Below, in pieces: positions 1-32,060 of a stretch of 64,000 nt of DNA. Both the position numbers and the translations under genes were made by a program. The stretch is from a virus (Duplodnaviria > Heunggongvirae > Uroviricota > Caudoviricetes), in the IMG/VR virus record IMGVR_UViG_3300037067_008629, positions 22,078-86,077 of that record; one strand, given 5' to 3'. Position 1 is the first letter of the stretch. Every line of letters begins with the position of its first letter. The notes under the pieces were generated by a model. That model made no database searches. It was not told the DNA's origin and saw only the letters and a list, made by a program, of their open reading frames with translations.

Positions 1-278
1 TCATAATACATTAACTTATCTATAACCATAGTTTTTAAACTTCCAACAGTCCAAAAAAATTGTCCTGGAGGACCACCACAAAATTGAATGGGATTTACAT
101 GCTCAGCCAACAAATGTTCAAGTCCCCTACAATAATCCCATACTGAAATGGTATAGTTTCCACCTGGAGCACAAATAATAATCTTTTCTTGATCGCAATC
201 TAATTCAAGAAGTAAATCTCTCGCTGCTTCGACTGTTATATCCTCACAGTACTTTTCATACTCGGCTAGTGTTCTCAT
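1..278 (-). CDS. GGPP-motif small protein, paralog 1 (C-terminus cut by window edge)
   Basis: Minus-strand ATG at 278 overlaps the stop of the next gene (ATGA). Translation reads MRTLAEYEKYCEDITVEAARDLL...NPIQFCGGPPGQFFWTVGSLKTMVIDKL. It shares the F-x-GGPP...(W/Y)-x-G-(T/S)-L motif with the next five genes. Confidence 0.5.
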   Translation of the reverse strand, partial: MRTLAEYEKYCEDITVEAARDLLLELDCDQEKIIICAPGGNYTISVWDYCRGLEHLLAEHVNPIQFCGGPPGQFFWTVGSLKTMVIDKLMYY

Positions 279-604
279 GCTGTCTGTCCCGCTAATTTTA
301 GAATCTTAGCCACAGTTTTCTTATCACCTTTTATATAGGCAAACATAAAATGATCTAAAAACATAGTGAACAAATTTCCATCCCACCAACGACCTACTGG
401 ACCACCAAAGAACCGTAACTCTACTGCTTTAGCTGGCCATAATCCTACAACATCCATATTATCATATAGATCAGCTAGTGCAAAACATGTACCGTCTACG
501 TATACTCTGGCCTGGGATGCTCCAAAGGTCCAACAAAGTCCATCTAAAGCATCTATGGCTGTCATATCTCCAAATAGATTTTCAAGCTGTTTGAAGTTTA
601 TCAT
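275..604 (-). CDS. GGPP-motif small protein, paralog 2
   Basis: 109-aa ORF. The motif is RFFGGPVGRWWDGNLFTMFLDH. It is one of a tandem array of about 110-aa paralogs. Confidence 0.55.
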   Translation of the reverse strand: MINFKQLENLFGDMTAIDALDGLCWTFGASQARVYVDGTCFALADLYDNMDVVGLWPAKAVELRFFGGPVGRWWDGNLFTMFLDHFMFAYIKGDKKTVAKILKLAGQTA

Positions 605-920
605 CTATCACCATATCAGTATAGTACCCTTTAGTTGACCAAGCGTGAAGAACCAAATCACAGACCCAAGTTAATAGAGTTCCACGATAAAATTGTCGCT
701 TATCGGGCGGACCACCCCAGAATTCAATAGGAGAAATTTCTTCTGCACTGATTCGATCTGCGCCAGGTAACTTTAAGATATTCTTAGCACAACTCTTACG
801 ATCAGTAAGAATATACGTAAAGAGGGTAGCCCCCTCATTAAATTCATTACAGACCAATTCGGCGGCCTCTTTAGCTGTTAGGCCATCTAGCTCTCGACGC
901 AATTTATCGTCAATCTTCAT
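582..920 (-). CDS. GGPP-motif small protein, paralog 3
   Basis: 112-aa ORF. The motif is EFWGGPPDKRQFYRGTLLTWVCD. Confidence 0.55.
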   Translation of the reverse strand: MKIDDKLRRELDGLTAKEAAELVCNEFNEGATLFTYILTDRKSCAKNILKLPGADRISAEEISPIEFWGGPPDKRQFYRGTLLTWVCDLVLHAWSTKGYYTDMVIDDKLQTA

Positions 921-971
921 ACTCTATTATACCATAAATAATCACAAAGTCAAATTCCCTTGATTCCAATA

Positions 972-1337
972 TTACGTAGCATCAAATACTCTCTTTATTT
1001 TAGATTGAATAGCAGAGTATCCATCAGTTAGAATATAATTGGCTATATGATCTAACAAAAAGGTCCAAACAGTTCCATTATACCAAGCACCACGTCCTAA
1101 AGGACCACCCACGAAGCGAATCTTAACATTGTGTGTATGAACTAGTGATGAGTAATGTGACACAAGTGTTTTGATTGTTGCTTGCTTTCCTTGCCATACA
1201 AAATCTTCATTCTCGCAACCAATCGCTTTACAAATAGCATAAGCTTCATCAATATCAATTGGTTTATACCGAGATAAAATAAAACTCGCAGCCCTTAATG
1301 GGTGCCTACAAGCAATAGTTTGTAAAGATGTCCCCAT
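972..1337 (-). CDS. GGPP-motif small protein, paralog 4
   Basis: 121-aa ORF. The motif is RFVGGPLGRGAWYNGTVWTFLLDH. Confidence 0.55.
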   Translation of the reverse strand: MGTSLQTIACRHPLRAASFILSRYKPIDIDEAYAICKAIGCENEDFVWQGKQATIKTLVSHYSSLVHTHNVKIRFVGGPLGRGAWYNGTVWTFLLDHIANYILTDGYSAIQSKIKRVFDAT

Positions 1338-1690
1338 TATAATTCAACATTTAAAAAACGGGCCAAAAGATTCTGGTTTCCTTCAACATAAGCATTTAAA
1401 ATTTTATCAATAATTAAAGTCAATAAAGTGCCATCGTACCAAGCAATTTTATTTGGTGGGCCGCCACTGAACTTAAGTGGCCCAACCTCCCTTGCAAGTA
1501 GGTATTCAATTCCAGGAAAATCTTTCGCCAACTTTTCTGGCATCGTATGAAGTCCATTTAATACTATCAAGTTGCGACTAGCATTAAAAGTATAATGCAA
1601 ATAGTTGATTACACGCATCGCCTTAATATTCTGCAACCGCATCATTAATTGGGCCTGCATTTCAGTCTCTTTAATAATATCTACAACCAT
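1337..1690 (-). CDS. GGPP-motif small protein, paralog 6 (internal start of track ORF 1337..2032)
   Basis: The C-terminal ~110 aa of the 231-aa track ORF carry KFSGGPPNKIAWYDGTLLTLIIDK. Upstream of about 1700 that frame overlaps paralog 5, which occupies another frame. The real start is probably the Met at 1690 (or 1660), giving a ~110-aa product like its neighbours. Confidence 0.45.
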   Translation of the reverse strand: MVVDIIKETEMQAQLMMRLQNIKAMRVINYLHYTFNASRNLIVLNGLHTMPEKLAKDFPGIEYLLAREVGPLKFSGGPPNKIAWYDGTLLTLIIDKILNAYVEGNQNLLARFLNVEL

Positions 1691-2025
1691 ACGTGTATCT
1701 TTTCCTGCTCCGGAATCCCCAGTACTCGACTCAGTTGTTTCACTGAATGCTGGCATAAATAATCGTAAATCCGGTCTAACAATAGTGTCTGTAAATTTCC
1801 CTTGTAGTACCCCAGTTTGTTGGGTGGGCCACCCCAAAAAGTGAAACGGGAAGTTTTGTTCGCTGGTAGCCAAGCCACATCGTCCATTTTCACCCAATCT
1901 TTGATGTAAACAATTTGACCCTGGAGATACACAAAAATTTCGATATGACCGAGTGCGCTTAGGATATTGTAGCATTTTGGAGCGCTTATCTCTTCTAGTT
2001 TTTCTAAAATATGCTCTGGAACCAT
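1681..2025 (-). CDS. GGPP-motif small protein, paralog 5
   Basis: 114-aa ORF. The motif is FTFWGGPPNKLGYYKGNLQTLLLDR. Confidence 0.55.
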   Translation of the reverse strand: MVPEHILEKLEEISAPKCYNILSALGHIEIFVYLQGQIVYIKDWVKMDDVAWLPANKTSRFTFWGGPPNKLGYYKGNLQTLLLDRIYDYLCQHSVKQLSRVLGIPEQEKIHVWL

Positions 2026-2028
2026 TAT

Positions 2029-2439
2029 TCATTTAGCTAAAGATTTTAATTCTTCAATCATTGTGACTCGCAGACCATTAAGTTCTGGAGTAATTGTTTT
2101 CCATTCTTCATTCTTAAGACGAAACTGTGAAACACTCATCCATTTATTACAAAACGCAGATAGTTCGGTTTCGGAAACACTAAGATTATCTGCTACCCAA
2201 CGTTCTGGGCAGGTTAATTCGCAGTGTGCAAAAAATGCTTTGCATCCTTCTTTTAACCATCTTTGATATTCAGGAGTACCTTGTAACGAAGTTCCTAGTA
2301 AATTTGCTAGACGGCGAGCAATTAAGGTTCTACTTGGTTCTGAAATATCACCTTTTAATTCTGCAACAAATTCCGCAAGATTAGCTAATCTAAGCATTAT
2401 CACTCCAATTATACTGATCATAAAATGATGAAGTACCAC
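2029..2439 (-). CDS. hypothetical protein
   Basis: 136-aa ORF packed tightly against its neighbours. I recognise no motif. Confidence 0.4.
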   Translation of the reverse strand: MVLHHFMISIIGVIMLRLANLAEFVAELKGDISEPSRTLIARRLANLLGTSLQGTPEYQRWLKEGCKAFFAHCELTCPERWVADNLSVSETELSAFCNKWMSVSQFRLKNEEWKTITPELNGLRVTMIEELKSLAK

Positions 2440-3352
2440 ACTCTGTATTCCCGGCCATTGTTAAAATAGCACTTCTTGGACAACGACTAAATGTTCGATA
2501 ACCACAAAGATGTGCAAAGGCACGCGAGCCAGGAGTACCGGGTTGTTTGTTTATAAACTTGGCAAGCTTGCGTCGTAATCCCCGTTTTAATAAATGATTT
2601 CGATGCTTCTTAAGAGGTTGATCATCATATACCCAGTGTGGCTTAGTCCAAGGACCTCGGACAACAAGCGTCTTCAGATAGTCTAATACCTTATTATTGC
2701 CACCACGACGTACATATTCTTCCGAGACATAAATTCCATAACGAATTAATGCTTGTTCATAACCACGCCAAACTTCGGCCCCATCTTGATGTTCGTCAGA
2801 GTATTTAAGATACTTTAAAATTCGTAGTACCGCAATCTGTGCGGCCTTTAATTCAGGAGTATCTAAGCAACCAGCACATTTCTGAAAACTATGGTATGGA
2901 ATAAACACTTGATATTGTCTATTACGCATCTGACGATCAGATGCTGGTCCCAATAAACTTCGATCAGGTTCTGCCGTCCATGAATTCCGACCAGTCACTG
3001 CCTGTGTGGTCGTAAAACCCTGGGATGCAGACCAGTTAACAGGCCGGTGCTCTGGTCTTCCACCATATAATGCAAGGTAGATATCTCGTGCGGATCGTTG
3101 ATCTGAATCATCACTAAAACCGATACCTGGATTCTGTAACTGATAATATGTCCCTATTGGCTGGGCTACATCAAGTCCAGGGCGCATATCATTTTCAGGA
3201 ACCATTACAGTAAGTTCAGGAACTCCTTGTGCAAACGAGTTACGGACCTGATGTTCCCATGTATCTCGGTAATCAGATGATAAACCTTGATACCAGTTGT
3301 AGATTGCCGGATAAGACCGCAAATATTCTTGAAAAGTTACAGGTCTAGGCAT
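2390..3352 (-). CDS. hypothetical protein
   Basis: 320-aa ORF. I recognise no family signature. Confidence 0.45.
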   Translation of the reverse strand: MPRPVTFQEYLRSYPAIYNWYQGLSSDYRDTWEHQVRNSFAQGVPELTVMVPENDMRPGLDVAQPIGTYYQLQNPGIGFSDDSDQRSARDIYLALYGGRPEHRPVNWSASQGFTTTQAVTGRNSWTAEPDRSLLGPASDRQMRNRQYQVFIPYHSFQKCAGCLDTPELKAAQIAVLRILKYLKYSDEHQDGAEVWRGYEQALIRYGIYVSEEYVRRGGNNKVLDYLKTLVVRGPWTKPHWVYDDQPLKKHRNHLLKRGLRRKLAKFINKQPGTPGSRAFAHLCGYRTFSRCPRSAILTMAGNTECGTSSFYDQYNWSDNA

Positions 3353-3645: not shown

Positions 3646-4145
3646 ATTTCATTCCTTTGTAGTGGACGACTACGAAGCCGGAGATAAGTAATCATTGATT
3701 CATTATCTCTTGGTTTCTTTATAACTGGTAATTCAGTTTCTGGGCAATCAAGAATCGTAGCACCATGAGCTTTTAGCAATTCGACAACCCACCACTCATT
3801 TGCTGTATGTATGTCTCCACATTTGCATGCACCAGATAAAACATCACAGTTTTCATGCCCCGTAACTTTAAGCCAGTATCTTGGAATATAAACTTTCCCA
3901 TTTTTTATTTGCAGATTAATCGTTTCAATCGTTGCACCATAGTATGATAAAGCCTCTTGTACAAATCCATCAGTTTCTTGATGAACACCACCACAGGCAC
4001 AAGGTCCAACTAACATATCACATCGAGTACGGTATCGGGCTGTTCCGTCAACCATACGCTTCTCGAAATGCTTAGGATAGGGGACAAATCCGCTATCTGG
4101 TCGGCGTTTAAGAATTTGATCTGGCATACTGTAAGTATACACCAT
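3642..4145 (-). CDS. hypothetical protein with duplicated Cys/His motif
   Basis: Two copies of C-x-x-L-x-G-x-C-x-C-G-x-x-H: GPCACGGVHQ and GACKCGDIHT. This looks like a putative metal-binding module. Confidence 0.4.
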   Translation of the reverse strand: MVYTYSMPDQILKRRPDSGFVPYPKHFEKRMVDGTARYRTRCDMLVGPCACGGVHQETDGFVQEALSYYGATIETINLQIKNGKVYIPRYWLKVTGHENCDVLSGACKCGDIHTANEWWVVELLKAHGATILDCPETELPVIKKPRDNESMITYLRLRSRPLQRNEI

Positions 4146-4196
4146 AAGGCATGGTTGTCAAATTAAATATTTAAGATTGCTGTAAAGCTATATAAA

Positions 4197-5651: not shown

Positions 5652-6061
5652 TCATCACTCCAGGGGAAGTTTAACCATAAAGGTGGTTTTTCTTGTAGAT
5701 AGTAAGTTGGCTTATAACTGCCTTCTTTCCAAAATAAAACTGCTGTGTCATGTTTACCAAAATGCTTTTCGCAAGTCTGCATCGTGTAACCGCCATCAAT
5801 TAAATCATCAACAATTAAGCAAGGTCCTTCAGGCAACTGACCTTCAATAATCGGAATTTCGCGTGGTGTATGGCCATTATAATGGCTAATTCGTATCTCT
5901 GCATGAGGAATCTCTAACTTCGCAGCTAATGGCTTGGAAATGTGCAATCCACCATTAGCAATTCCAACAACATGCTGGTATCTTGATTTATGTGGCAAGA
6001 TTAAACTTGCCAGATAGGCGATCATTATATCAACTTGCCAAGATTGTAGATTTAAGAACAT
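5648..6061 (-). CDS. gpt: xanthine-guanine phosphoribosyltransferase-like (type I PRTase)
   Basis: The PRPP-binding motif is CLIVDDLIDGGYT. Length and layout resemble E. coli Gpt (VVGIANGGL...; C-terminal WLNFPW against WIEQPW). Confidence 0.65.
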   Translation of the reverse strand: MFLNLQSWQVDIMIAYLASLILPHKSRYQHVVGIANGGLHISKPLAAKLEIPHAEIRISHYNGHTPREIPIIEGQLPEGPCLIVDDLIDGGYTMQTCEKHFGKHDTAVLFWKEGSYKPTYYLQEKPPLWLNFPWSDE

Positions 6062-7113
6062 TAATCTACTCCAAATCTTTTGCGGGTATCATTAAGAGCG
6101 GCATTAGCTTCCGTCGTGGTATTAAAAGCCCCTAAAGTATATTTTCTACCTTGAATTTTAATCTCGGCAATATATTTTCCTCGTTGTTTATGGTACCAAA
6201 CACCTTTTATTCCAGTAGAACTATTTGTCTGGGCCCCACGATTATGCAAATTTCTTGATTTTGTGACAATTCGTAAATTGTCTCTGCGATTATCCAATGG
6301 GTCTTGATTTACATGGTCAATCGTCAAATTTGATTTTGCATTAGGGACTTCTAGTCCCATTCGTTGAATAATTTCTTGGTGCATATAGATTGTTTTAGTT
6401 TTTCCCTTAATTCGAGTCTTACGCATGGCTCGATAAACCTTACTCTGTGGCGTAACACACCAGCACCACTGGTTTAAATGCCGCCAATCTTCTGGACTTA
6501 TTTTTGCTTCAAATGATGGTGCCACTTTAATTGTATCAAGGTCATAAACCATTCCATAATCAAAGAATTTCCATCTATTATAAGTTTCGACCGAAGAATC
6601 ATATGCTACACTTCTTAGATAAGTATATAATTCTTTCCACTTGGAGAAAATCATTTGATGTGGAATAGTTGCCAGCAACCAATCTGGAGCCTCGGCCTTA
6701 CCCTGTTCACAATGCACCAAAATTGGCTTCCCCTCAGTATTAGCTCTAAATACCTCATTCCATGTCCCCACGGAGTAGGCATTAAAATCAATATGACAAA
6801 TAATAAAATCTGAAACATCGACCATTCTTAGATCAATATCTTTAATCGGCTGCATCATTTGCGTAGCCGTATCAAAGTGTCCTGCCCGTTTTTCAATTGA
6901 GCGTAGTTTCCGATGCTCAGAATCTTCGATACCTTCTGCAATCGGCTTCTGTATTGGGTCCATCCAAATAATACCTAAATCTTTCAAATCATGTTTGATT
7001 CGCTGTCGCCAGACTACTCCTCCATCCTTAACAAAATCCATCGGCCCAGCTAAATAACATCGGTTATAAAATAGCCTATTCATGTAATAACTCCGCCCAT
7101 TGTGAGGAACCAA
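6061..7113 (-). CDS. nucleoside 2-deoxyribosyltransferase/DNPH1-like domain fused in frame to an HNH-AP2 endonuclease domain
   Basis: The N-terminal half carries YLAGPMDF and GTWNEVFRANTEGKPILV, the PF05014-type signature with its catalytic Glu. The C-terminal roughly 150 aa carry an HNH motif (LTIDHVNQDPLDNRRDNLRIVTKSRNLH) followed by an AP2 domain (IKGVWYHKQRGKYIAEIKIQGRKYTLGAFNTTTEANAA). No stop codon separates the two parts. Confidence 0.6.
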   Translation of the reverse strand: MVPHNGRSYYMNRLFYNRCYLAGPMDFVKDGGVVWRQRIKHDLKDLGIIWMDPIQKPIAEGIEDSEHRKLRSIEKRAGHFDTATQMMQPIKDIDLRMVDVSDFIICHIDFNAYSVGTWNEVFRANTEGKPILVHCEQGKAEAPDWLLATIPHQMIFSKWKELYTYLRSVAYDSSVETYNRWKFFDYGMVYDLDTIKVAPSFEAKISPEDWRHLNQWCWCVTPQSKVYRAMRKTRIKGKTKTIYMHQEIIQRMGLEVPNAKSNLTIDHVNQDPLDNRRDNLRIVTKSRNLHNRGAQTNSSTGIKGVWYHKQRGKYIAEIKIQGRKYTLGAFNTTTEANAALNDTRKRFGVD

Positions 7114-9395: not shown

Positions 9396-10156
9396 ACATT
9401 CTCCCATAGATTATCTTTAACTTGAATCAAACCATTCTCTTCTGCAATATGCTCGCAGTAATTTCGATCTATTTCAATTGACATACAACCTACATTGAGA
9501 CGTTTACAGACTCTCATTACAGTTCCAGTGCCACTACAAGCGTCAATCACTGCATCTTGTGTGCCGCAACTAAGTTTAATACATCGCTCCACCAGTGTCT
9601 CCCCTAGCTGGGTGGGATGCCATGCTCGTCGTTGCTTTGAGTTGCCAGTAACTCTTGGAACATCGAAGACATCGCCTGGGACCCTCCCACGGGCGTCTGC
9701 TCGCTTGTCTCCGTGCTCTTGACGCCAGGAAGGTACTCGAATAGCATCAGGATACAACTCAACGCCAGGATGCATCAAGCGAACTAATGGACGATGATTA
9801 TTTCCTAGATCATGTTGATTATGTTGCCCGAAGGTGAACGTCTGGACGCAAGCTTTAGCCAATAGTTGCTTATCTGCAACAAGCTTAGTTACAAAAGACC
9901 CCATATCAAATGTCCACTTGGCATTGTACGAGAACCATGTGATATCAGCAACCGTAGTTGACAGCCGTAGAACATATTCTAACCAAATTAAATATTCTTC
10001 AGTTGATCGTTTATCATCATATTCGCCATATTTTAGGCCGATGGCATCTGGCGGGTCCATGAATAGCATACGCCAACGAGGCTTTAACTCTCTAAGTACA
10101 CTTTCAATAGGCGAACAGACTAGACTATATTTACTCATCTGTATATTATGACACAA
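9392..10156 (-). CDS. DNA methyltransferase (beta-class N6-adenine/N4-cytosine)
   Basis: The motif IV-like MDPPD lies N-terminal to the motif I VIDACSGTGTV, which is the beta-class permutation. That order is typical of ParB-associated phage methyltransferases. Confidence 0.6.
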   Translation of the reverse strand: MCHNIQMSKYSLVCSPIESVLRELKPRWRMLFMDPPDAIGLKYGEYDDKRSTEEYLIWLEYVLRLSTTVADITWFSYNAKWTFDMGSFVTKLVADKQLLAKACVQTFTFGQHNQHDLGNNHRPLVRLMHPGVELYPDAIRVPSWRQEHGDKRADARGRVPGDVFDVPRVTGNSKQRRAWHPTQLGETLVERCIKLSCGTQDAVIDACSGTGTVMRVCKRLNVGCMSIEIDRNYCEHIAEENGLIQVKDNLWENV

Positions 10157-11405
10157 AAATGGGACTTGTCAAGGCGGATATTGGATCATCACGATATTTT
10201 AAAAGATGCCCCTGAAGAGTGGCCATACTCCACTCATTTGGTGTTCCACGCTCAGAGAATTGTTTTGCTACTTCAGGAAGTGCTGGAAAGAATCGGAGAA
10301 ATAGTTTTTTCATTTGATCTCTGGATGCATTTGCCAATTCCAGACTTAAATCCACACGCCCCGGACGAATTAAAGCTGGATCAAGAGTTTCAATATGATT
10401 TGTTGTCATAAATAGAATTCGACCTTCACTGGCCATAACACCATCTATTGCATTCAATAATCCAGAGAAAGTTACACTTTCCTTATCATCAGCTTTTTTA
10501 CGTTGAAGGAATACACAATCAATGTCTTCAATAAGTATCATGCTATTAGTTGGAATCGACGACATTAATTCTAATAAACCCTCATTACTTAAAGAATGTG
10601 AACTCAGATTCAATGTATAGATATCAAACTGAAGTGTTGAGGCTAATGCAATAACCAAGGAACTCTTACCATTTCCAGGTGCCCCATGTAATAAATAACC
10701 GCGTCGGTATGGAATACCACGATCATTATACCAACTTTCAGATTTTTGAAACAAGCAAATATCTTCTAAAATTCGATCAGACAATCCATCAGCTAGAATC
10801 ACTGATTCCATTGGCCGTGGTAGTCGTTTACCTACAGCAATCCAACTTCCATAGTCGTGGGATGCAATAGTTACTCTTGCATCTAGTGGTGGGTGATAGA
10901 CTTGACGAGCTTCTTCCAGTAAATCTAATACAATTTGTTTGTTGCGACTGAATAATGTAAAGTTAAATGTCTCATAAAATCCCAGCGCTCCGGCTCCGTT
11001 ACCACCCCCCTTGTCACTACCTTCTCGACGATCTCGACGTAACACTACCAAACGATGACGATAGAAGAAAAAATGCAGCCCTGGAGCTGGGGATAAAATA
11101 ACTTGTGGCTTTTTTAAATTTGAGTCACCAATATCATTAGTTTCATGTCGTTGCCGTTTAGTTTGAACAGTCCATAACCGACATCGCCGTTGATAAGGAT
11201 GTTGGGCTAACCATACATTTAACCACTTAAAAGCTTCATCACGATCTGGCACATCTACAACTGTTATAAGGCGTCGTTTTGTCCAGTCCCAAATATGATT
11301 AGGAACCCGACGTAAATAGGCAAATACTACACCTACAACTGCCAATAAAGCTCCCCCACTTAGGAACTGATTGCTAGACAATTGGTCTATTAATGATTGC
11401 CACAT
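10146..11405 (-). CDS. BCS1-like AAA+ ATPase with N-terminal transmembrane segment
   Basis: N-terminal hydrophobic helix (GGALLAVVGVVFAYL). Walker A is GYLLHGAPGNGKSS and Walker B is ILIEDIDCVF. The layout resembles BCS1 (membrane anchor plus a single AAA module). Confidence 0.6.
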   Translation of the reverse strand: MWQSLIDQLSSNQFLSGGALLAVVGVVFAYLRRVPNHIWDWTKRRLITVVDVPDRDEAFKWLNVWLAQHPYQRRCRLWTVQTKRQRHETNDIGDSNLKKPQVILSPAPGLHFFFYRHRLVVLRRDRREGSDKGGGNGAGALGFYETFNFTLFSRNKQIVLDLLEEARQVYHPPLDARVTIASHDYGSWIAVGKRLPRPMESVILADGLSDRILEDICLFQKSESWYNDRGIPYRRGYLLHGAPGNGKSSLVIALASTLQFDIYTLNLSSHSLSNEGLLELMSSIPTNSMILIEDIDCVFLQRKKADDKESVTFSGLLNAIDGVMASEGRILFMTTNHIETLDPALIRPGRVDLSLELANASRDQMKKLFLRFFPALPEVAKQFSERGTPNEWSMATLQGHLLKYRDDPISALTSPIFVS

Positions 11406-26499: not shown

Positions 26500-27561
26500 C
26501 CGACACTGCTTTTAGAATTAATCGACCACCGAGAATCGGACTAAAAGTTTCGGTCAAAGGGGTAATCACGACACCTTCACGACCTTTAAAAGCTGATCGC
26601 ATATGTACCTTATCACCAATAATAGTGTCTCCATCCACAAGTTGTTCTACCACTTCATAATCAAATGGCCCAGTATATAGTAGAGGAACTAATGGGATAC
26701 AAAAACGAGTAGTATAATAGACAATTTGATCCCAGTTTAAGTAAGTACCATCGACTGAAATATCAAATAATGCATAACCATCGGCACCAAATCTACCGTA
26801 GTCCATAAATTGGACCTTGGAACCATAAATTTCTCCGAATGCAATCACATTCTTTCCACCATCAGAGATACACCGAAGCATATCCTTCATATTGGATGTA
26901 AGTGGATTCCAATAAATAGACGGATGCTCCAGCTTATCAAGAGACTTCATTGAACATTTATGTGACCCACACATAAATTCATTGTCAATTAATCCAACAC
27001 GCGAATTAGTACCGTGAATTTTTTCGGTTAAACGCACTGGCGTTCCAAGTGGAATTGCATTCCGATACTTAGAATTTCGATAATTTTGAATATCTGTATA
27101 GATGTGAATCGGGGATCATTCTTGGCATTATCTCCAACTCTAAACCATTCTGGTTCTGGTGGTTCATATTTAACACCATGAAAACGATCCGTAAGATCAG
27201 TTCCAGCTTCCACATCTACTTTAATTGTGTCACAGATATCACGCCTCTGTGCAGGCACCAAGAACCCAAATGAAGCTGCCCCACGTAAACGAATAGCACC
27301 TACTCGACACCTAGATTTTTCAGAATCTCCCGGATAAACTGCATCTTTGAGATAATTCTCAACTCCGAGTTGTACAGCTACTTTAGGGGGTATGAGTATG
27401 TCTGGTGGGAAGTGGGCAACAACATCGCCCACTTGATACTTACCTTTTGTTTCACAAGTTTGATAGGCACCAATCTTAACAATTTCTAATTTATCTGCAT
27501 TAATGTGTGGATAAATGGCATCAACTTTAACAGCCAAAATACTCAAATCACTCATGCGCAT
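26462..27561 (-). CDS. Rnl2-like RNA ligase with N-terminal tRNA-binding-like OB domain, interrupted by a frameshift at the C4 run 27112-27115
   Basis: Downstream frame: DIQNYRNSKYRNAIPLGTPVRLTEKIHGTN aligns to the T4 Rnl2 N-terminus [33 protein letters not shown], with motif I KIHGTN. Motif III is AFGEIYGSKVQ and motif IV is EGVVITPL. Upstream frame 27028..27561: ILAVKVDAIYPHINADKLEIVKIG resembles the Myf/EMAP tRNA-binding OB domain. The two frames join if one C is added to the cccc run (minus strand) at 27112-27115. Confidence 0.6.
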
Positions 27562-29147
27562 CCTCCAATTAATTTATCAATAGCATTAACAAAATCTTCA
27601 ACTCGATCCCCACCAACAAGATGCTCGAAATCAATGGTGTTGGCTTTCTGTACCATTGCCTCTAAGCTAGTGTTGTCTAAAATCAACATTTTAGCCACTT
27701 CAGTATACTGCTGGTAACTAGTAGTAACTAATTCATCCATACCAGCCCTACGTAGCAAATAAGATGCCGCTCGATTAAACCATTGAGTACCTTCTAACGT
27801 AACTACTGGGCGACCACACCAGAGAGATTCCAGTATTGTATTATAGCCTCCAAAAGGATAGCTGTCAACTGAAAAATGACAATTTGCCAGAACTTCCATG
27901 TACTTCTCATATGGTAAGTTAGGCACTATCGTTATATTCTTTCCAAAATACTCTAGCATTGACATACGTACAGGTATTGATGCTTGATATCTATGGATTG
28001 GATGCCCTGGCATAAAAACTAAATGTGCCCCTACTGCTTGAAGTTCCTTTAAACATTGAAACATTGGTATATTATATTTGATTGCGCTCCAAGGCACTGC
28101 GACTCTAATTTGATCTGAAAGTGATGCTTTTACTTTAATTGTAGGCAAAACCGGTAATACACCGCTTCCTGGAAGTAGTATTAAGTTTTCAGAATAATTC
28201 TTTTTCCAATCTAATACTTCAACTGATTTTCCAGACAGAAAATAATCAATTTGATTACCCCTACCGGATACAGGATGACCATGGCAAGCAACCTGCACCG
28301 GTGCTAGCCTCATATTGGATAGATAAATAGACTCTGCTGTTAATCCAATATCTAAAAATAAAGCCATACCAAAAGTTGTAGTTTGAATCTCTGATAAATC
28401 TAATCCCCGATCACTTACAGATACTTGTGCAACATTTTTAAAAATAGATAAATCCGCTGTCGCATCAATTGGGCCTAAATGAACCAGTGTGAGTTTATAT
28501 TTTTCAGCTAAAGCATAGACAAGTTTTCCTATTGACTTCGCTACAACATGAGTTGGTTTCCAATTACTGGTGACAATAGCAATATGTTTAAGATTGGGCA
28601 CATTATCTGGTGTTGGTAATGTAAAACTCTTATTAAATTGTCTCTTTACTTTTTGGGCGGTATTTGATGAAAAATAATCCGACCAAAAATAAGCCTGCGT
28701 ACTTTGAGGGAGAAATACACAACGTGGATGAATATTTTTATAATGAGATTCAATATTTTTCTGAAGATTAGTATCTGTACAACCAATAATTGGCAAAATA
28801 TATTGAGCAAACCATAAAGATGCTAAATTTCTATCATGTTTAAAAAATTGTCGTGAATCCATGCTGTCTCTATTTCGTCCTGTATAGAGAAACATTTGTT
28901 TCACTGGATCATCAAATAAATTGAGCCACTGATCCGTTGTTTTATATGGAGTGACTGCAACTATATTTGCATAAATATGACTATAAGTTAGTAGCTGATA
29001 AGCCTCATCTTTGGGTACATCCTGGTCTTTAAGAATCTCTAAAACACCATCGGCTGCTTGAATAAACATCCCAAGAATCTGGCCATCAAGTTTATTGATA
29101 CCAACACGAGCAAATGGATCAAGTATAGCCTGTATCTGTTCAATCAT
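27552..29147 (-). CDS. GT41-family (O-GlcNAc transferase-like) glycosyltransferase, paralog A
   Basis: DSYPFGGYNTILESLWCGRPVVTLEGTQWFNRAASYLLRRAG matches the OGT C-terminal catalytic signature ([38 protein letters not shown]). MRLAPVQVACHGHPVSGRGNQIDYFLSG parallels [27 protein letters not shown]. No TPR region is obvious. Confidence 0.6.
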   Translation of the reverse strand: MIEQIQAILDPFARVGINKLDGQILGMFIQAADGVLEILKDQDVPKDEAYQLLTYSHIYANIVAVTPYKTTDQWLNLFDDPVKQMFLYTGRNRDSMDSRQFFKHDRNLASLWFAQYILPIIGCTDTNLQKNIESHYKNIHPRCVFLPQSTQAYFWSDYFSSNTAQKVKRQFNKSFTLPTPDNVPNLKHIAIVTSNWKPTHVVAKSIGKLVYALAEKYKLTLVHLGPIDATADLSIFKNVAQVSVSDRGLDLSEIQTTTFGMALFLDIGLTAESIYLSNMRLAPVQVACHGHPVSGRGNQIDYFLSGKSVEVLDWKKNYSENLILLPGSGVLPVLPTIKVKASLSDQIRVAVPWSAIKYNIPMFQCLKELQAVGAHLVFMPGHPIHRYQASIPVRMSMLEYFGKNITIVPNLPYEKYMEVLANCHFSVDSYPFGGYNTILESLWCGRPVVTLEGTQWFNRAASYLLRRAGMDELVTTSYQQYTEVAKMLILDNTSLEAMVQKANTIDFEHLVGGDRVEDFVNAIDKLIGGCA

Positions 29148-30901
29148 TGAATAATAACTGGAGTCTTATTAGGTAGTGGATGATTTGCGATAATATAGTC
29201 GATTGCTTTAACAAAATATTGAGGTTCATCAGTATCCAACAATAAGTTCTTTAAACGATTAACATCAACTAATTTATCTCTTTCTTCTTTAAGAACTTGT
29301 GGATTATCCAAGAGTGCTAAAATTTGTTCTTCGCACATTTCAATACTTGTGGTGGATAAATCTACTCCAACCCGTCTCGCCAAAGCTGTTGACGCCCTAT
29401 TATAGAACTTATCACCTTCAATAGTCACAACAGGGCATCCAGCAAAGAACGAGTCTACAATAGTATTATAGCCACCAAATGGATATGAATCAACAGTCAG
29501 ACTTCCTTGTTCCACCTTAGCGAGATAATCCTGATATTCAAGATTAGGATAAATCGAAACCTGGCCACCAAAGAGTTCTTGTAGTTCTCGACACATAATT
29601 GGAAAATTATTATAGCGAGTACATGTCCATGATGGGAAAAATTGATAGTGTATCTTTAATTTAGATTTTTGTTGAACATTTCTTAGCATCTTCAACATCG
29701 GCCAATTAATTTTAGCTGTTGTCCAGCAACAGTTAATATAAATTATATCTGTAGCCTCTGGATAACGACGTGTATATTTAGGATCAACTGGATGCGCACC
29801 CAATCCTGGAATCAAAATTAGATGCTCACTATAATTATCTTGAGCTAATTCAATTTTTTCAGAGTCAATCCCACCAATAAAATAGTCTACAAATGAACCA
29901 TATGTGCTTACAGGATGTCCATAACCACAAACCATAATAGGAGCAAGTCTTGTATTTGCAAGAAAAACAGATTCGTCTGTCATTCCAATATCAGGAAAGT
30001 ATGCCAATTCAAAATCATTTTTCTTAATAGCAGTTAAATCATGTTTCTCCATTCCAGCATGAACCTGAACAACTTGTTTAAATAGAGACCTATCTATTCT
30101 ATCCATTTGTGCTTTACTTGAACAGACTAGAGTTAAGTCATACTTTTGTGCCAGAGCTGCGATCTGAGGATAACTACTTTTATAAACTGCCGTAACTGGA
30201 ACCCATTTATCTGTGATGATAGCTAGGCTTCCTTTTCGAGGCACACTAGTTATTTTATGCAAGTTAGAAAATTTCTTAACTTGTTGATTGCACCATTCTT
30301 TAATGGGTCGCTCATTAATACCTGAATATGAACATTGAAAATACATAGGTTGAACACGACTATCAGGTAAATCAAGTTCTGGTAAAAATTCAACTAGGTG
30401 TTTAATCATATTTTTAGTTAAAAATTCAGACGTGCCTCCAGGAGGGGCAGTAGAAAAATTATTCCACCATAAAGTTGCTAGTTTAGGATTGGGCGTAACT
30501 AGTGCTTTAGTATTAATTCCAATATCATTTCTACACGTATACAGAAATAATAATTTTGCATAATTTCCTTCTTGGTATATTAATGCTCTTAGTACACCAT
30601 CAGTAGTGCGATGGCCAGATATTGCCACTAGATTGGCAAATAAATGATTAATACCGATAAACAATGGAATCCAGTTGTCTGGGAATCTGAAATCTTCTTG
30701 CAGCATTAAAAAGAAAACAAACTCCACAAAAGAATCTATTCGCTTTATATCTTCTTTTCCAAAAGAAGCATAATTAACATCATTGCAATGCTTTAGTATT
30801 GCAAATATATCTTGACAAAGCTTATCGTATCTCTTCTGTGTATATAGTGTCAAAGCATACCGAGTATCAAAAGCCGGAAAATTAGTAATTGATGTATTCA
30901 C
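29144..30901 (-). CDS. GT41-family (O-GlcNAc transferase-like) glycosyltransferase, paralog B
   Basis: DSYPFGGYNTIVDSFFAGCPVVTIEGDKFYNRASTALARRVG and RLAPIMVCGYGHPVSTYGSFVDYFIGG carry the same OGT catalytic-domain signatures and are clearly paralogous to 27552..29147. Confidence 0.6.
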   Translation of the reverse strand: MNTSITNFPAFDTRYALTLYTQKRYDKLCQDIFAILKHCNDVNYASFGKEDIKRIDSFVEFVFFLMLQEDFRFPDNWIPLFIGINHLFANLVAISGHRTTDGVLRALIYQEGNYAKLLFLYTCRNDIGINTKALVTPNPKLATLWWNNFSTAPPGGTSEFLTKNMIKHLVEFLPELDLPDSRVQPMYFQCSYSGINERPIKEWCNQQVKKFSNLHKITSVPRKGSLAIITDKWVPVTAVYKSSYPQIAALAQKYDLTLVCSSKAQMDRIDRSLFKQVVQVHAGMEKHDLTAIKKNDFELAYFPDIGMTDESVFLANTRLAPIMVCGYGHPVSTYGSFVDYFIGGIDSEKIELAQDNYSEHLILIPGLGAHPVDPKYTRRYPEATDIIYINCCWTTAKINWPMLKMLRNVQQKSKLKIHYQFFPSWTCTRYNNFPIMCRELQELFGGQVSIYPNLEYQDYLAKVEQGSLTVDSYPFGGYNTIVDSFFAGCPVVTIEGDKFYNRASTALARRVGVDLSTTSIEMCEEQILALLDNPQVLKEERDKLVDVNRLKNLLLDTDEPQYFVKAIDYIIANHPLPNKTPVIIQ

Positions 30902-32060
30902 AAAGTATCCCTTCCTGTAAAATTAGAAGTTTTCGGTATTTGATTCCACGATATTCAATATCTAGTTTAATATCTTTAGCCCGCCACGGTGTTGTAATAA
31001 CAATAATTGGATCAATAAGAGTATTTAGTATATCCGGTGACTGAATTTCTTGACCTGTTCCAGGAACAAACTTACCAACTTTATGTACATCTGAATCAAC
31101 CACCAACGGATAATTAACACTATCAATCCCATAACTGTTTAAAAAGGCCGCACTTTTACCAGTCCCACCCCAAAAAACTAGCGTCTTACCCTGCTGCCTT
31201 ATTTCTTCTAATTGTCTTCTAACCGTACTAATAGAATCTTTAGCACCGATACCAAAGGCTTTAGCTGTGTCATTATAAAACTGTAATGGCACACTATTAG
31301 GTGTGAAAAAACCAGCAAGTACTTCGTTACCGTAGTATCTATTTATATCAAGGGTTGAGTATCCAGACTGAGTAAAGAGTGTCTGAAAACTGTTTGAAGT
31401 AAAATTAGATACATGCTCGTATAAAAAGTCAGAAATTCGGCCCAACGCTAATGAGTTATCAAAGCACGGAACTTCGACCAAAACAATTGGTGATAAATTA
31501 TATCTACTACACCAGTAGGCTATTTCAGATAAAAATTCTCTCGGCCTATCCATATGTTCAATAACATGTCGGCATACAAGTAAAGATGGTCTAAATCGAG
31601 CTAAATCACGCTCTGGAATAAAATAATCTCTAAAGACCGAAAAATTTTTAACTTGGTCGCCTTCGATTCCTGGCTCATAACCAATACAAGAAGCAGTGGG
31701 TACAGTACCGAGCAGACGGGTGAAAAATTGTCCATCACCACATCCGATATCAATTGCTATGCCATTTATCCAACGTTCCTTGTATGTATGGAGTTTATTG
31801 ACTAATATTTGCATATGAGTCTGCCACTCTGGTCCGCTATTATACATCAAATTAGAATCTTCAGCATAGGGGACTTGTGCATAATTAAAATTTGCATTAA
31901 AAACATGTCCACAGAATGAGCACATGTGAAAATTCATAGGAAACCTGAGCGCATTCTGTGCCATAGCGGCCGATCTTGGTAAATTTAGAGCGGCCAATGG
32001 TTGAGGGCCTGGATCAAAGATTTTCTGGGTTAATCTGCTACCACATACTATACATCTCAT
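30882..32060 (-). CDS. SAM-dependent sugar C-methyltransferase-like (zinc-ribbon + class I MTase + C-terminal domain)
   Basis: The N-terminal CIVCGSRLTQKIFDPGPQPLAALNL matches the zinc-binding N-domain of sugar C3-methyltransferases (TylCIII/NovU type). Motif I is IAIDIGCGDGQF. The ~390-aa size fits that family. Confidence 0.55.
   Translation of the reverse strand: MRCIVCGSRLTQKIFDPGPQPLAALNLPRSAAMAQNALRFPMNFHMCSFCGHVFNANFNYAQVPYAEDSNLMYNSGPEWQTHMQILVNKLHTYKERWINGIAIDIGCGDGQFFTRLLGTVPTASCIGYEPGIEGDQVKNFSVFRDYFIPERDLARFRPSLLVCRHVIEHMDRPREFLSEIAYWCSRYNLSPIVLVEVPCFDNSLALGRISDFLYEHVSNFTSNSFQTLFTQSGYSTLDINRYYGNEVLAGFFTPNSVPLQFYNDTAKAFGIGAKDSISTVRRQLEEIRQQGKTLVFWGGTGKSAAFLNSYGIDSVNYPLVVDSDVHKVGKFVPGTGQEIQSPDILNTLIDPIIVITTPWRAKDIKLDIEYRGIKYRKLLILQEGILCEYINY

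What the first reader, a model, noticed from the sequence alone, without database searches (positions are those of the whole stretch)
1..2032. Tandem array of six diverged ~110-aa paralogs sharing a GGP(P) signature
Six consecutive minus-strand genes (one cut by the window edge, two overlapping in different frames at 1681-1700) all end in the same block. The block is [FW]-x-GGP[PLV]-x-[KR]-x-x-[WY][YW]-x-G-[TN]-[LV]-x-T-[LF]-[LI]-[LI]-D, with divergent N-terminal halves. A paralog array at this size and position in a phage is typical of host-takeover or anti-defense genes that diversify under arms-race pressure. I could not place the motif in any characterised family; it vaguely recalls a DUF described as having a conserved GGP motif.
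Basis: seen in the sequence. Interest (0 to 1): 0.7.

Follow-up and report, generated by a model that had tools for sequence, protein, structure and literature searches.

The report
Ancient ordered paralog array, uncultured phage
Six neighbouring small genes in an uncultured phage are real, old copies of one unknown protein family with no detectable known fold; they are kept in the same order across distant phages under purifying selection rather than evolving fast, and what they do is still unknown.

Summary
Window 1-2025 (minus strand) carries six homologous genes of 104-121 aa, called P6 to P1 here, sharing F-x-GGP...G-[TSN]-[LV]-x-T-x3-D.

The family has no Pfam, PHROG, NCBIfam or PDB sequence match. 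A confident AF2 model (pLDDT 93.6) has no fold relative in PDB or BFVD. The family was found only in uncultured phage contigs (307 cluster representatives).

The arms-race reading is not supported:
- Orthologs are collinear (P6-P5-P4-[P4b]-P3-P2-P1) in eight phages at 38-87% identity.
- The first two positions keep their type even in distant clades.
- dN/dS is 0.07-0.20, like neighbouring genes.

The genes overlap by 1-23 nt. One related phage has P3 and P2 fused in frame. Array heads and dispersed copies sit directly behind consensus sigma-70-type promoters whose -10 box lies 5-6 nt before the ATG, which implies leaderless early transcripts.

Best reading (confidence 0.4): an early-expressed, subfunctionalised set of binding proteins that act together. 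Function is inferred, not shown.

Unexpected extra: the whole P6 gene is overlapped by a stop-free -1 frame continuous with P5 (window 1337-2032). It averages 0.4 stops against 8-12 in the other paralogs.

The parts
1..278 (-). P1, last paralog of the array. ATG at 278-276 overlaps the P2 stop as ATGA. Cut by the window edge: 92 of 104 aa are seen.
   Evidence: Translation. Family HMM E 1e-25. Full-length identical protein P0170 from the 86,077-bp source contig.
275..604 (-). P2 paralog, 109 aa. It has a 2-residue deletion after GGPV.
   Evidence: Identical to P0002. dN/dS 0.079.
582..920 (-). P3 paralog, 112 aa. First gene of the second transcription unit. Overlaps P2 by 23 nt.
   Evidence: dN/dS 0.085. 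Fused in frame with the P2-type gene in L020 5438-6085.
926..953 (-). Sigma-70-type promoter TTGACT-N16-(TGg)TATAAT. Its -10 box ends 5 nt before the P3 ATG, which predicts a leaderless P3-P2-P1 transcript.
   Evidence: 11 of 12 consensus match with TG. The same promoter-to-ATG geometry is conserved in L008, L003, L005 and L020. It is a clade-wide pattern with a peak at 6 nt. The transcription start is inferred, not measured.
972..1337 (-). P4 paralog, 121 aa. ATG overlaps the P5 stop as TAATG. The fastest-evolving member.
   Evidence: dN/dS 0.198.
1337..1690 (-). P5 paralog, 117 aa, starting at the conserved internal ATG (MVV...).
   Evidence: AF2 gives the same fold as P6 at pLDDT 87-96 for residues 131-220 of the long ORF, 71 at its first block and lower at the C-terminal end. 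dN/dS 0.073.
1681..2025 (-). P6 paralog, 114 aa, first gene of the array.
   Evidence: Identical to P0001. AF2 pLDDT 93.6, pTM 0.85. dN/dS 0.106.
1337..2032 (-). Long open frame of 231 aa: P5 plus a 114-codon upstream extension covering all of P6 in its -1 frame. Its ATG at 2032 overlaps the upstream gene's TGA as ATGA. Whether it is translated is unknown.
   Evidence: Zero stops in this frame in 6 of 8 loci (1 and 2 stops in the other two), against 3-17 per gene in the other paralogs. Synonymous permutation gives P = 0.0002 for the window. P6 third-position T is 0.19 against 0.32-0.36. At least 12 cluster representatives of 200-261 aa show the same extension. The extension is predicted disordered. 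No extra amino-acid conservation.
2029..2397 (-). Conserved 122-aa gene immediately upstream of the array in every locus examined. The listed GTG start at 2439 is probably too far upstream. Unrelated to the family.
   Evidence: BLASTP 34-48% identity to the gene at the same position in L002, L013, L011, L015, L016 and L017. Alignment A6. hhalign against the family finds no relation.
2390..3352 (-). 320-aa protein with a central domain like Pyr_excise / MSMEG_6728. Upstream neighbour in several relatives, absent in L008.
   Evidence: PF03013 E 3.3e-6. NF038085 E 3.9e-12, below its cut-off. Orthologs in L013, L015 and L011. Absent in L008.
4127..4161 (-). Sigma-70-type promoter TTGACA-N16-TATACT, followed after 6 nt by ATG 4127. 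Probable leaderless start of the transcription unit that runs into P6-P5-P4 in this phage.
   Evidence: The orthologous promoter in L008 is a 12 of 12 match with the same spacing.

Best explanation
The six genes are the window's copy of an old, ordered multigene module of a previously undescribed phage protein family. Each member is about 110 aa with a predicted alpha/beta fold: two helices, a hairpin, two short helices, a hairpin carrying the GGP(P) loop, then two helices.

Shown:
- The copies are homologous, and each has its own ortholog in the same order in related phages.
- All are under purifying selection.
- Start and stop codons overlap.
- Consensus sigma-70-type promoters sit directly against the first ATG of array units and of the dispersed copies.

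Inferred:
- The module is transcribed early by host RNA polymerase as leaderless, translationally coupled polycistronic mRNAs.
- The copies are non-enzymatic binding proteins. The invariant F-x-GGP hairpin plus the Asp on the following helix form the common structural or interaction core, and the group-specific residues along the rest of the chain give each copy its own role.
- The copies act together as a hetero-oligomer or cooperative set on one process, rather than as interchangeable or fast-evolving effectors.

The target is unknown.
For: Homology and fold; AF2 pLDDT 93.6 for P6 and the same topology for P5.

Collinear 1:1 orthology P6-P5-P4-(P4b)-P3-P2-P1 in the window, L008/9, L003, L004, L005, L006, L007 and L020. 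Distant phages L015, L016, L017, L023 and L024 still begin with a P6-type then a P5-type member.

Purifying selection: dN/dS 0.07-0.20, like neighbours at 0.04-0.18. Group-specific residues are conserved along the whole length.

Coupling: overlaps of 10, 1, 23 and 4 nt in the window, and 4-26 nt in the gene calls of L001, L002, L009 and L013.

Fusion: the P3-type and P2-type genes form a single 216-aa two-domain ORF in L020.

Early expression: on the coding strand 40 promoter-like sites score at least 11 of 12, against 2 on the opposite strand. 23 of the 40 have a gene ATG 4-8 nt after the -10 box, with a peak at 6 nt. These include the heads of the array units and all dispersed copies.

Non-enzymatic: the only invariant polar residue is one Asp.
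Against: - No interaction was tested, and no multimer prediction was possible.
- Copy number is not fixed: 5, 6 or 7 in tandem, plus 0-2 dispersed copies with their own promoters. The window lineage lacks P4b. This argues against a rigid closed assembly of fixed stoichiometry.
- The array is split into two transcription units in most phages.
- The single fusion in L020 could be an assembly or sequencing frameshift.
- Collinearity and purifying selection are equally expected if each copy independently binds a different conserved host target.
- A glycine-rich loop plus an invariant Asp could instead be a small-ligand site.
Confidence: 0.4

Rival explanations
1. Independent host-takeover effectors with a fixed repertoire. 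Each paralog uses the common scaffold to bind and inhibit or redirect a different conserved host protein early in infection, with no physical cooperation among copies.
For: - Small, phage-restricted proteins with no enzymatic signature.
- Placed directly behind consensus host-type promoters.
- Dispersed copies have their own promoters and presumably act alone.
- Copy number varies from 5 to 8.
- Group-specific conserved residues fit distinct targets.
Against: - The strict gene order is kept over deep divergence.
- Start and stop codons overlap tightly.
- The in-frame P3-P2 fusion is not required by this model.
- No host target is known.
Confidence: 0.3
2. Arms-race anti-defence paralogs. The copies diversify rapidly to counter variable host defence systems.
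For: - A tandem array of diverged small phage ORFans sharing one motif.
- Copy-number differences among phages.
- Predicted early expression.
Against: - dN/dS is 0.07-0.20, no higher than housekeeping neighbours.
- 1:1 orthologs are collinear in eight phages.
- Positional identity is retained in distant clades.
- No recent duplicates were seen. The best between-paralog score is far below every ortholog score.
Confidence: 0.07
3. Small-ligand or nucleic-acid binding proteins, or enzyme subunits, tied to the phage's nucleotide and DNA-modification metabolism. The GGP loop and the invariant Asp would form the binding site.
For: - The neighbourhood is rich in nucleotide and DNA metabolism genes across the clade: IMPDH/GMP reductase, nucleoside deoxyribosyltransferase, DeoC, a phosphoribosyltransferase (Pribosyltran), Thy1, dCMP deaminase, methyltransferases, and a Pyr_excise-like protein directly upstream.
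- A glycine-rich loop plus an acidic residue is a common ligand-binding arrangement (general knowledge, not tested).
Against: - There is only one invariant polar residue.
- No similarity to any nucleotide-binding fold.
- Five to eight differentiated copies are hard to explain for one ligand.
- The Pyr_excise-like neighbour is dispensable, being absent in L008.
Confidence: 0.13
4. Virion or internal structural proteins present in several related copies.
For: Paralogous small structural proteins exist in some phages (general knowledge).
Against: - The array lies about 47 kb from the structural genes at 49-64 kb, among replication and nucleotide-metabolism genes.
- It sits behind host-type consensus promoters.
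- No PHROG structural family matches.
Confidence: 0.03

Closest known systems
Early host-takeover gene clusters of lytic phages (T7 class I, T5 pre-early, SPO1 host-takeover module); comparison from general knowledge
   Same: Clusters of small, phage-restricted proteins with no enzymatic signature, placed behind strong host-type sigma-70 promoters and presumably made first after infection.
   Different: Those clusters consist of mostly unrelated proteins. Here all members are paralogs of one family with no detectable known fold, kept in a fixed order over deep divergence. The transcripts are predicted to be leaderless.
Hetero-oligomers built from retained paralogs (Sm/LSm rings, proteasome alpha/beta rings, MCM2-7); analogy only
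   Same: Five to seven differentiated paralogs with a shared conserved core, each retained as a 1:1 ortholog under purifying selection.
Anti-CRISPR and anti-defence islands
   Same: Clustered small phage ORFans of unknown fold that are hard to annotate.
   Different: Such islands are known for unrelated genes, rapid turnover and an associated HTH regulator (general knowledge). Here the genes are paralogs with low dN/dS and a stable order. No HTH gene was detected next to them.
Overprinted or nested phage genes (phiX174 B, K and E; lambda Rz/Rz1)
   Same: A second long open frame lies entirely over another gene, P6, in a different frame and is conserved across relatives.
   Different: The overlapping frame is continuous with the next paralog rather than being a separate gene. 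It shows no amino-acid conservation beyond what P6 imposes and is predicted disordered. Its translation has not been shown.
Pfam DUFs described as having a GGP motif
   Same: A short Gly-Gly-Pro signature.
   Different: No Pfam model matches any of 127 family members at E <= 0.01, apart from one chance hit. The resemblance is to a three-residue motif only.

Membership tests
Any Pfam-A family, including DUFs with a GGP motif | Match to the family HMM at or above its gathering score | tested here: not met
   The six paralogs have no hit better than E 0.07, far below the cut-offs. All 127 members of A2 were scanned, and only one chance hit appeared at E 0.0099.
PHROG and NCBIfam families | Match to a family profile | tested here: not met
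   PHROGs gave nothing below E 0.02. NCBIfam gave nothing relevant.
Arms-race (diversifying) phage paralog family | Elevated dN/dS relative to neighbouring genes | tested here: not met
   Paralogs are at 0.07-0.20 and neighbours at 0.04-0.18, for the window against L008/L009. dS is about 1, so the estimates are rough.
Arms-race (diversifying) phage paralog family | Turnover: lineage-specific duplications and lack of 1:1 orthologs | tested here: not met
   Orthologs are collinear 1:1 in eight phages. The only difference within the subclade is presence or absence of P4b. Distant clades have 5-7 copies and keep the P6-type and P5-type members first.
Early genes transcribed by host sigma-70 RNA polymerase | Consensus -35/-10 promoter directly upstream | tested here: met
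   Window 953-926 scores 11 of 12 with TG. The promoter is conserved at P3 in five phages and at P6 in five phages. The strand asymmetry is 40 against 2.
Early genes transcribed by host sigma-70 RNA polymerase | Measured early transcription after infection | not testable with these tools
   There is no cultured phage or host.
Subunits of one hetero-oligomeric complex | Co-transcription and translational coupling | tested here: met
   Start/stop overlaps of 1-26 nt occur at nearly all junctions within each unit.
Subunits of one hetero-oligomeric complex | Natural fusion of two subunits (Rosetta-stone evidence) | tested here: inconclusive
   There is one case, L020 5438-6085, with P3-type and P2-type in frame. 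It comes from a single metagenomic contig and could be an error.
Subunits of one hetero-oligomeric complex | Physical interaction between the copies | not testable with these tools
   No multimer prediction or experiment was available.
Overlapping (dual-coding) gene | Second frame kept open beyond chance across relatives | tested here: met
   The P6 -1 frame averages 0.4 stops against 8.3-11.8 in the other paralogs. Permutation P values are 0.0002, 0.0036, 0.009 and 0.028, with two loci not significant. P6 is depleted in third-position T.
Overlapping (dual-coding) gene | Constraint on the amino-acid sequence of the second frame, or reduced synonymous rate in the first | tested here: not met
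   Alt-frame identity is 0.54, within the 0.47-0.59 range of non-coding frames of the other genes. pS of P6 is 0.60, not reduced.
Overlapping (dual-coding) gene | A usable start codon for the second frame | tested here: inconclusive
   In the window the ATG at 2032 overlaps the upstream stop as ATGA. In L004 the long-frame ATG is the predicted leaderless start. In L005, L006 and L007 it lies upstream of the likely transcription start.

The most novel reading that the evidence does not exclude
A broad clade of uncultured 70-175-kb phages encodes a hetero-oligomeric early machine built from 5-8 anciently differentiated paralogs of a new fold. It is expressed from leaderless transcripts. Its first gene is truly dual-coding: all of P6 is overlapped by a translated, disordered N-terminal extension of P5.
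Probability: 0.15. Interest if true: 0.8.

Novelty: new variant of a known kind. Interest (0 to 1): 0.55.

Why it matters
Phage genomes are full of small early ORFans, and arrays of similar ones are usually dismissed as fast-evolving accessory genes. This array is the opposite case.
- It is an undescribed family with a confidently predicted fold that has no detectable relative.
- Its copies were differentiated long ago and have been kept in order under purifying selection across a large uncultured phage clade. That points to a core, non-redundant early function.

If the copies assemble into one complex, it would be a rare viral example of a machine built from retained paralogs.

Two further features make the locus a good test bed for how compact phage genomes organise early expression:
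- the systematic geometry of consensus promoter, then about 6 nt, then ATG, which implies leaderless transcripts;
- the stop-free frame across P6.

Function is still unknown, so the value is as a well-defined target for synthesis and testing.

Tried and rejected
- Pfam, PHROGs and NCBIfam on all six paralogs and on 127 members gave nothing.
- A PDB sequence profile search gave only a chance match to NOX2 at E 0.16.
- The afdb50 library was unavailable.
- Megablast of 6 kb and tblastn of P5 and P3 against 50,697 cultured-phage records gave no match. PolA is only about 25% identical to that of any cultured phage.
- Two scans of 185,579 GTDB species genomes with family peptide patterns found no member. 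The patterns were narrow, so absence is not proven.
- P0047 (844 aa, 9 stretches) is a repeat protein that matches only through IGGPF. It was rejected as a false positive.
- The 200-260-aa hits are not fusions with another domain. They are the P5 frame extended over P6 and have no Pfam domains.
- The conserved 122-130-aa upstream protein was tested as a possible divergent family member and rejected by hhalign. It has no PDB relative.
- The source contig could not be retrieved through the window's own proteins, so DNA beyond the left edge was not seen.
- Family-wide alignments were too diverse for locus searches, so ortholog-group alignments were used instead.
- Literature searches for the motif and for leaderless early phage promoters returned nothing that bears on this family.
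- Rfam found only two tRNAs in the window.
Full report
**1. What is in the sequence**

The left end of the window carries six consecutive minus-strand genes.

| Gene | Coordinates | Length | Note |
|---|---|---|---|
| P6 | 1681-2025 | 114 aa | first gene of the array |
| P5 | 1337-1690 | 117 aa | ATG at 1690 |
| P4 | 972-1337 | 121 aa | |
| P3 | 582-920 | 112 aa | |
| P2 | 275-604 | 109 aa | |
| P1 | 1-278 | 92 of 104 aa seen | ATG at 278; full protein is P0170 |

- Junctions are tight: P6/P5 overlap by 10 nt, P5/P4 share TAATG, P3/P2 overlap by 23 nt and P2/P1 share ATGA. The only gap is 51 nt between P4 and P3.
- The six proteins align over their whole length with invariant F, GGP, G, T and D.
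- Pairwise BLASTP E-values among P2-P6 go down to 1.7e-9, with one pair (P3-P4) not significant.
The core common to all six is F-x-GGP-[PLV]...G-[TNS]-[LV]-x-T-x3-D.
- The block is not C-terminal. Two helices follow it.

**2. The family**

- No Pfam, PHROG or NCBIfam model matches, and no PDB sequence does.
- A profile search of 1.84 billion cluster representatives finds 307 proteins at E <= 1e-3 and 101 at E <= 1e-10. The word-indexed search finds 21-55. All are unnamed metagenomic proteins on contigs up to 175 kb.
- Nothing was found in cultured phages or in GTDB species genomes.
- AlphaFold2 with a 127-sequence alignment gives a confident model of P6: pLDDT 93.6, pTM 0.85. The topology is helix, helix, hairpin, two short helices, a hairpin with the GGPP loop between its strands, then two helices.
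- P5 is predicted with the same topology.
- The AlphaFold database could not be searched, so the claim of a new fold is provisional.
- Across 52 members from eight phages, only F, G, G, P, G and D are invariant, and A, L, T and the second P are nearly so. With one invariant polar residue, the block looks like a structural or interaction core rather than a catalytic site. This is inference.

**3. The phage and the neighbourhood**

- The window encodes a tape-measure protein, PolA, a ligase, a primase-like protein, an exonuclease, IMPDH/GMP reductase, a nucleoside deoxyribosyltransferase fusion, a BCS1-like AAA ATPase, glycosyltransferases and two tRNAs.
- PolA is only about 25% identical to that of any cultured phage.
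- Related IMG/VR and metagenome contigs of 56-175 kb are syntenic around the array.
- A 122-130-aa protein sits immediately upstream of the array in every locus. It is unrelated to the family.
- A Pyr_excise / MSMEG_6728-like protein precedes it in several phages but is missing in the closest relative, L008.

**4. The array is old and ordered, not fast-evolving**

- Every related phage examined has a tandem array of 5-7 members. Several also have one or two distant dispersed copies 4-7 kb downstream.
- In the window, L008/9, L003, L004, L005, L006, L007 and L020, each member has a clear best match to one window paralog. The order is always P6-P5-P4-(P4b)-P3-P2-P1.
- The window, L008 and L003 lack P4b.
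- In distant phages (L015, L016, L017, L023, L024) the first member still scores best as P6-type and the second as P5-type.
- Between the window and its closest relative, dN/dS is 0.106 (P6), 0.073 (P5), 0.198 (P4), 0.085 (P3) and 0.079 (P2). Four neighbours, including IMPDH, are at 0.039-0.176. dS is about 1, so these values are rough but clearly far below 1.
- Each ortholog group has its own conserved residues along the entire chain.
- The copies were therefore differentiated long ago and each is retained. This contradicts the idea of diversification under arms-race pressure.

**5. Expression signals**

- The only intergenic gap in the array holds TTGACT-N16-TGgTATAAT at 953-926. Its -10 box ends 5 nt before the P3 ATG.
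- This arrangement is conserved at P3 in L008, L003, L005 and L020, even where the promoter lies inside the preceding paralog's coding end.
- An equivalent promoter precedes P6 in L004, L005, L006, L007 and L020. Its -35 box is embedded in the last codons of the upstream gene. It has decayed in the window and L008.
- In the window, P6-P5-P4 are probably read from the promoter at 4161-4134, which is followed after 6 nt by ATG 4127.
- Over 13 loci (253 kb), the coding strand has 40 sites matching at least 11 of 12 consensus positions, against 2 on the other strand.
- 23 of the 40 have the ATG of an ORF of at least 50 aa 4-8 nt after the -10 box, with a sharp peak at 6 nt.
- All dispersed family copies are such first genes.
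- Taken together, these phages appear to make leaderless early transcripts with host RNA polymerase, and family members are frequent first genes. This is inferred from sequence and was not measured.

**6. How it most likely works**

- Shown: homology, a common predicted fold, deep collinear orthology, purifying selection, overlapping starts and stops, and consensus promoters.
- Inferred: early, coupled co-expression of subfunctionalised, non-enzymatic binding proteins.
- I favour, at 0.4, that the copies act together as a hetero-oligomer or cooperative set. The grounds are the preserved order, the coupling, and one natural in-frame fusion of the P3-type and P2-type genes in L020.
- Variable copy number, the split into two transcription units and the dispersed copies argue against a rigid complex.
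- Those same features keep the rival of independent fixed host-takeover effectors close, at 0.3.
- A ligand or nucleotide-related role is possible given the neighbourhood (0.13).
- The arms-race anti-defence reading is disfavoured (0.07), and a structural role is unlikely (0.03).

**7. An unexpected feature inside the finding's coordinates**

- The 231-aa ORF at 1337-2032 is P5 extended upstream through the whole of P6 in P6's -1 frame. Its ATG at 2032 overlaps the upstream stop as ATGA and lies 7 nt before the P6 ATG.
- The same frame is stop-free, or nearly so, across the P6-type gene in all eight subclade loci. The counts are 0, 1, 2, 0, 0, 0, 0 and 0 stops. The other paralogs average 8.3-11.8 stops in that frame, and the +1 frame of P6 has 5-15.
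- Permuting synonymous codons within the gene gives P = 0.0002, 0.0036, 0.009 and 0.028 in four loci. It is not significant in two.
- P6-type genes are depleted in third-position T, at 0.19 against 0.32-0.36.
- At least a dozen 50%-identity cluster representatives of 200-261 aa show the same extension.
- Against a functional second protein:
  - The extension shows no amino-acid conservation beyond what P6 imposes.
  - P6's synonymous divergence is not reduced.
  - AF2 predicts the extension to be disordered, with pLDDT 37-57.
  - In L005, L006 and L007 the long-frame ATG lies upstream of the likely transcription start, whereas in L004 it is the predicted leaderless start.
- The frame is under selection to stay open, but why is unexplained. 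The options are a disordered N-terminal tail on a long P5 isoform, or a translational bridge that keeps ribosomes engaged through to P5 and P4.
- Distant clades lack this feature.

**8. Verdict**

The phage origin, the uncharacterised status and the probable early, host-directed timing hold. The arms-race diversification does not.
- At the level of protein family and fold this is new. At the level of system it is best called a new variant of the known phenomenon of early phage multigene clusters.
- It is distinguished by deep ordered conservation, leaderless expression and a stop-free overlapping frame.
- Function remains unknown.

Noticed in passing
window 1337-2032 (-); also L004 8572-9327, L005 8557-9264, L006 8812-9489, L007 8824-9486, L020 3979-4689: The -1 frame of the first paralog (P6) is kept free of stop codons and is continuous with P5, giving a 214-252-aa open frame. 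It averages 0.4 stops against 8-12 in the other paralogs, and P6 is depleted in third-position T. There is no amino-acid conservation in that frame and it is predicted disordered. Why it is kept open is unexplained.
   Followed up: partly
window 953-926, 4161-4134 and 10172-10145 (-); 13 loci in all: Consensus sigma-70-type promoters (TTGACA-N16-TATAAT or TATAGT) are followed after about 6 nt by a gene's ATG. 23 of 40 strong coding-strand sites show this, against 0 of 2 on the opposite strand. This implies systematic leaderless early mRNAs in this phage clade.
   Followed up: partly
L020 5438-6085: The P3-type and P2-type paralogs are fused in one frame as a 216-aa two-domain ORF in one related phage (IMGVR_UViG_3300014204_000183). 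This is either a natural fusion or a frameshift error in a single contig.
   Followed up: partly
L004 14893-15288, L005 17486-17914, L006 16063-16473, L013 14072-14473; L015, L016 and L017 at about 13.6-14.6 kb: There are additional, very divergent family copies 4-7 kb downstream of the array (E 1e-7 to 1e-15), each the first gene behind its own consensus promoter. The equivalent region of the window's phage lies beyond the window's left edge.
   Followed up: partly
window 2029-2397 (-): A 122-130-aa protein of unknown function always sits immediately upstream of the array, even in distant phages (34-48% identity). In relatives its last codons carry the -35 box of the P6 promoter.
   Followed up: partly
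window 10146-11405 (-): A phage-encoded AAA ATPase has the BCS1 N-terminal domain and the BCS1 lid (PF08740 E 2.8e-32). This architecture is best known from the mitochondrial chaperone BCS1.
   Followed up: no
window 6061-7113 (-): One 350-aa ORF has sub-threshold matches to a nucleoside 2-deoxyribosyltransferase domain and an AP2 domain, and an above-threshold match to an HNH endonuclease domain. It may be a homing-endonuclease insertion or fusion.
   Followed up: no
window 27552-32060 (-): A block with one glycosyltransferase above the Pfam GT41 cut-off (27552-29147), a second weak sub-threshold GT41 match (29144-30901) and a C-methyltransferase-like gene lies among replication genes. Together with IMPDH/GMP reductase and deoxyribosyltransferase, it may point to nucleotide or DNA modification.
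   Followed up: no
window 27868-27840 (-): A perfect 12 of 12 TTGACA-N17-TATAAT site lies inside the glycosyltransferase gene with no ATG-initiated ORF directly after it.
   Followed up: no
L001 5247-5399, L002 3513-3677, L013 10311-10475: A highly basic protein of about 50 aa (MGRTWRKNSDYG...) directly follows P1 in relatives. The corresponding window sequence is beyond the left edge.
   Followed up: no
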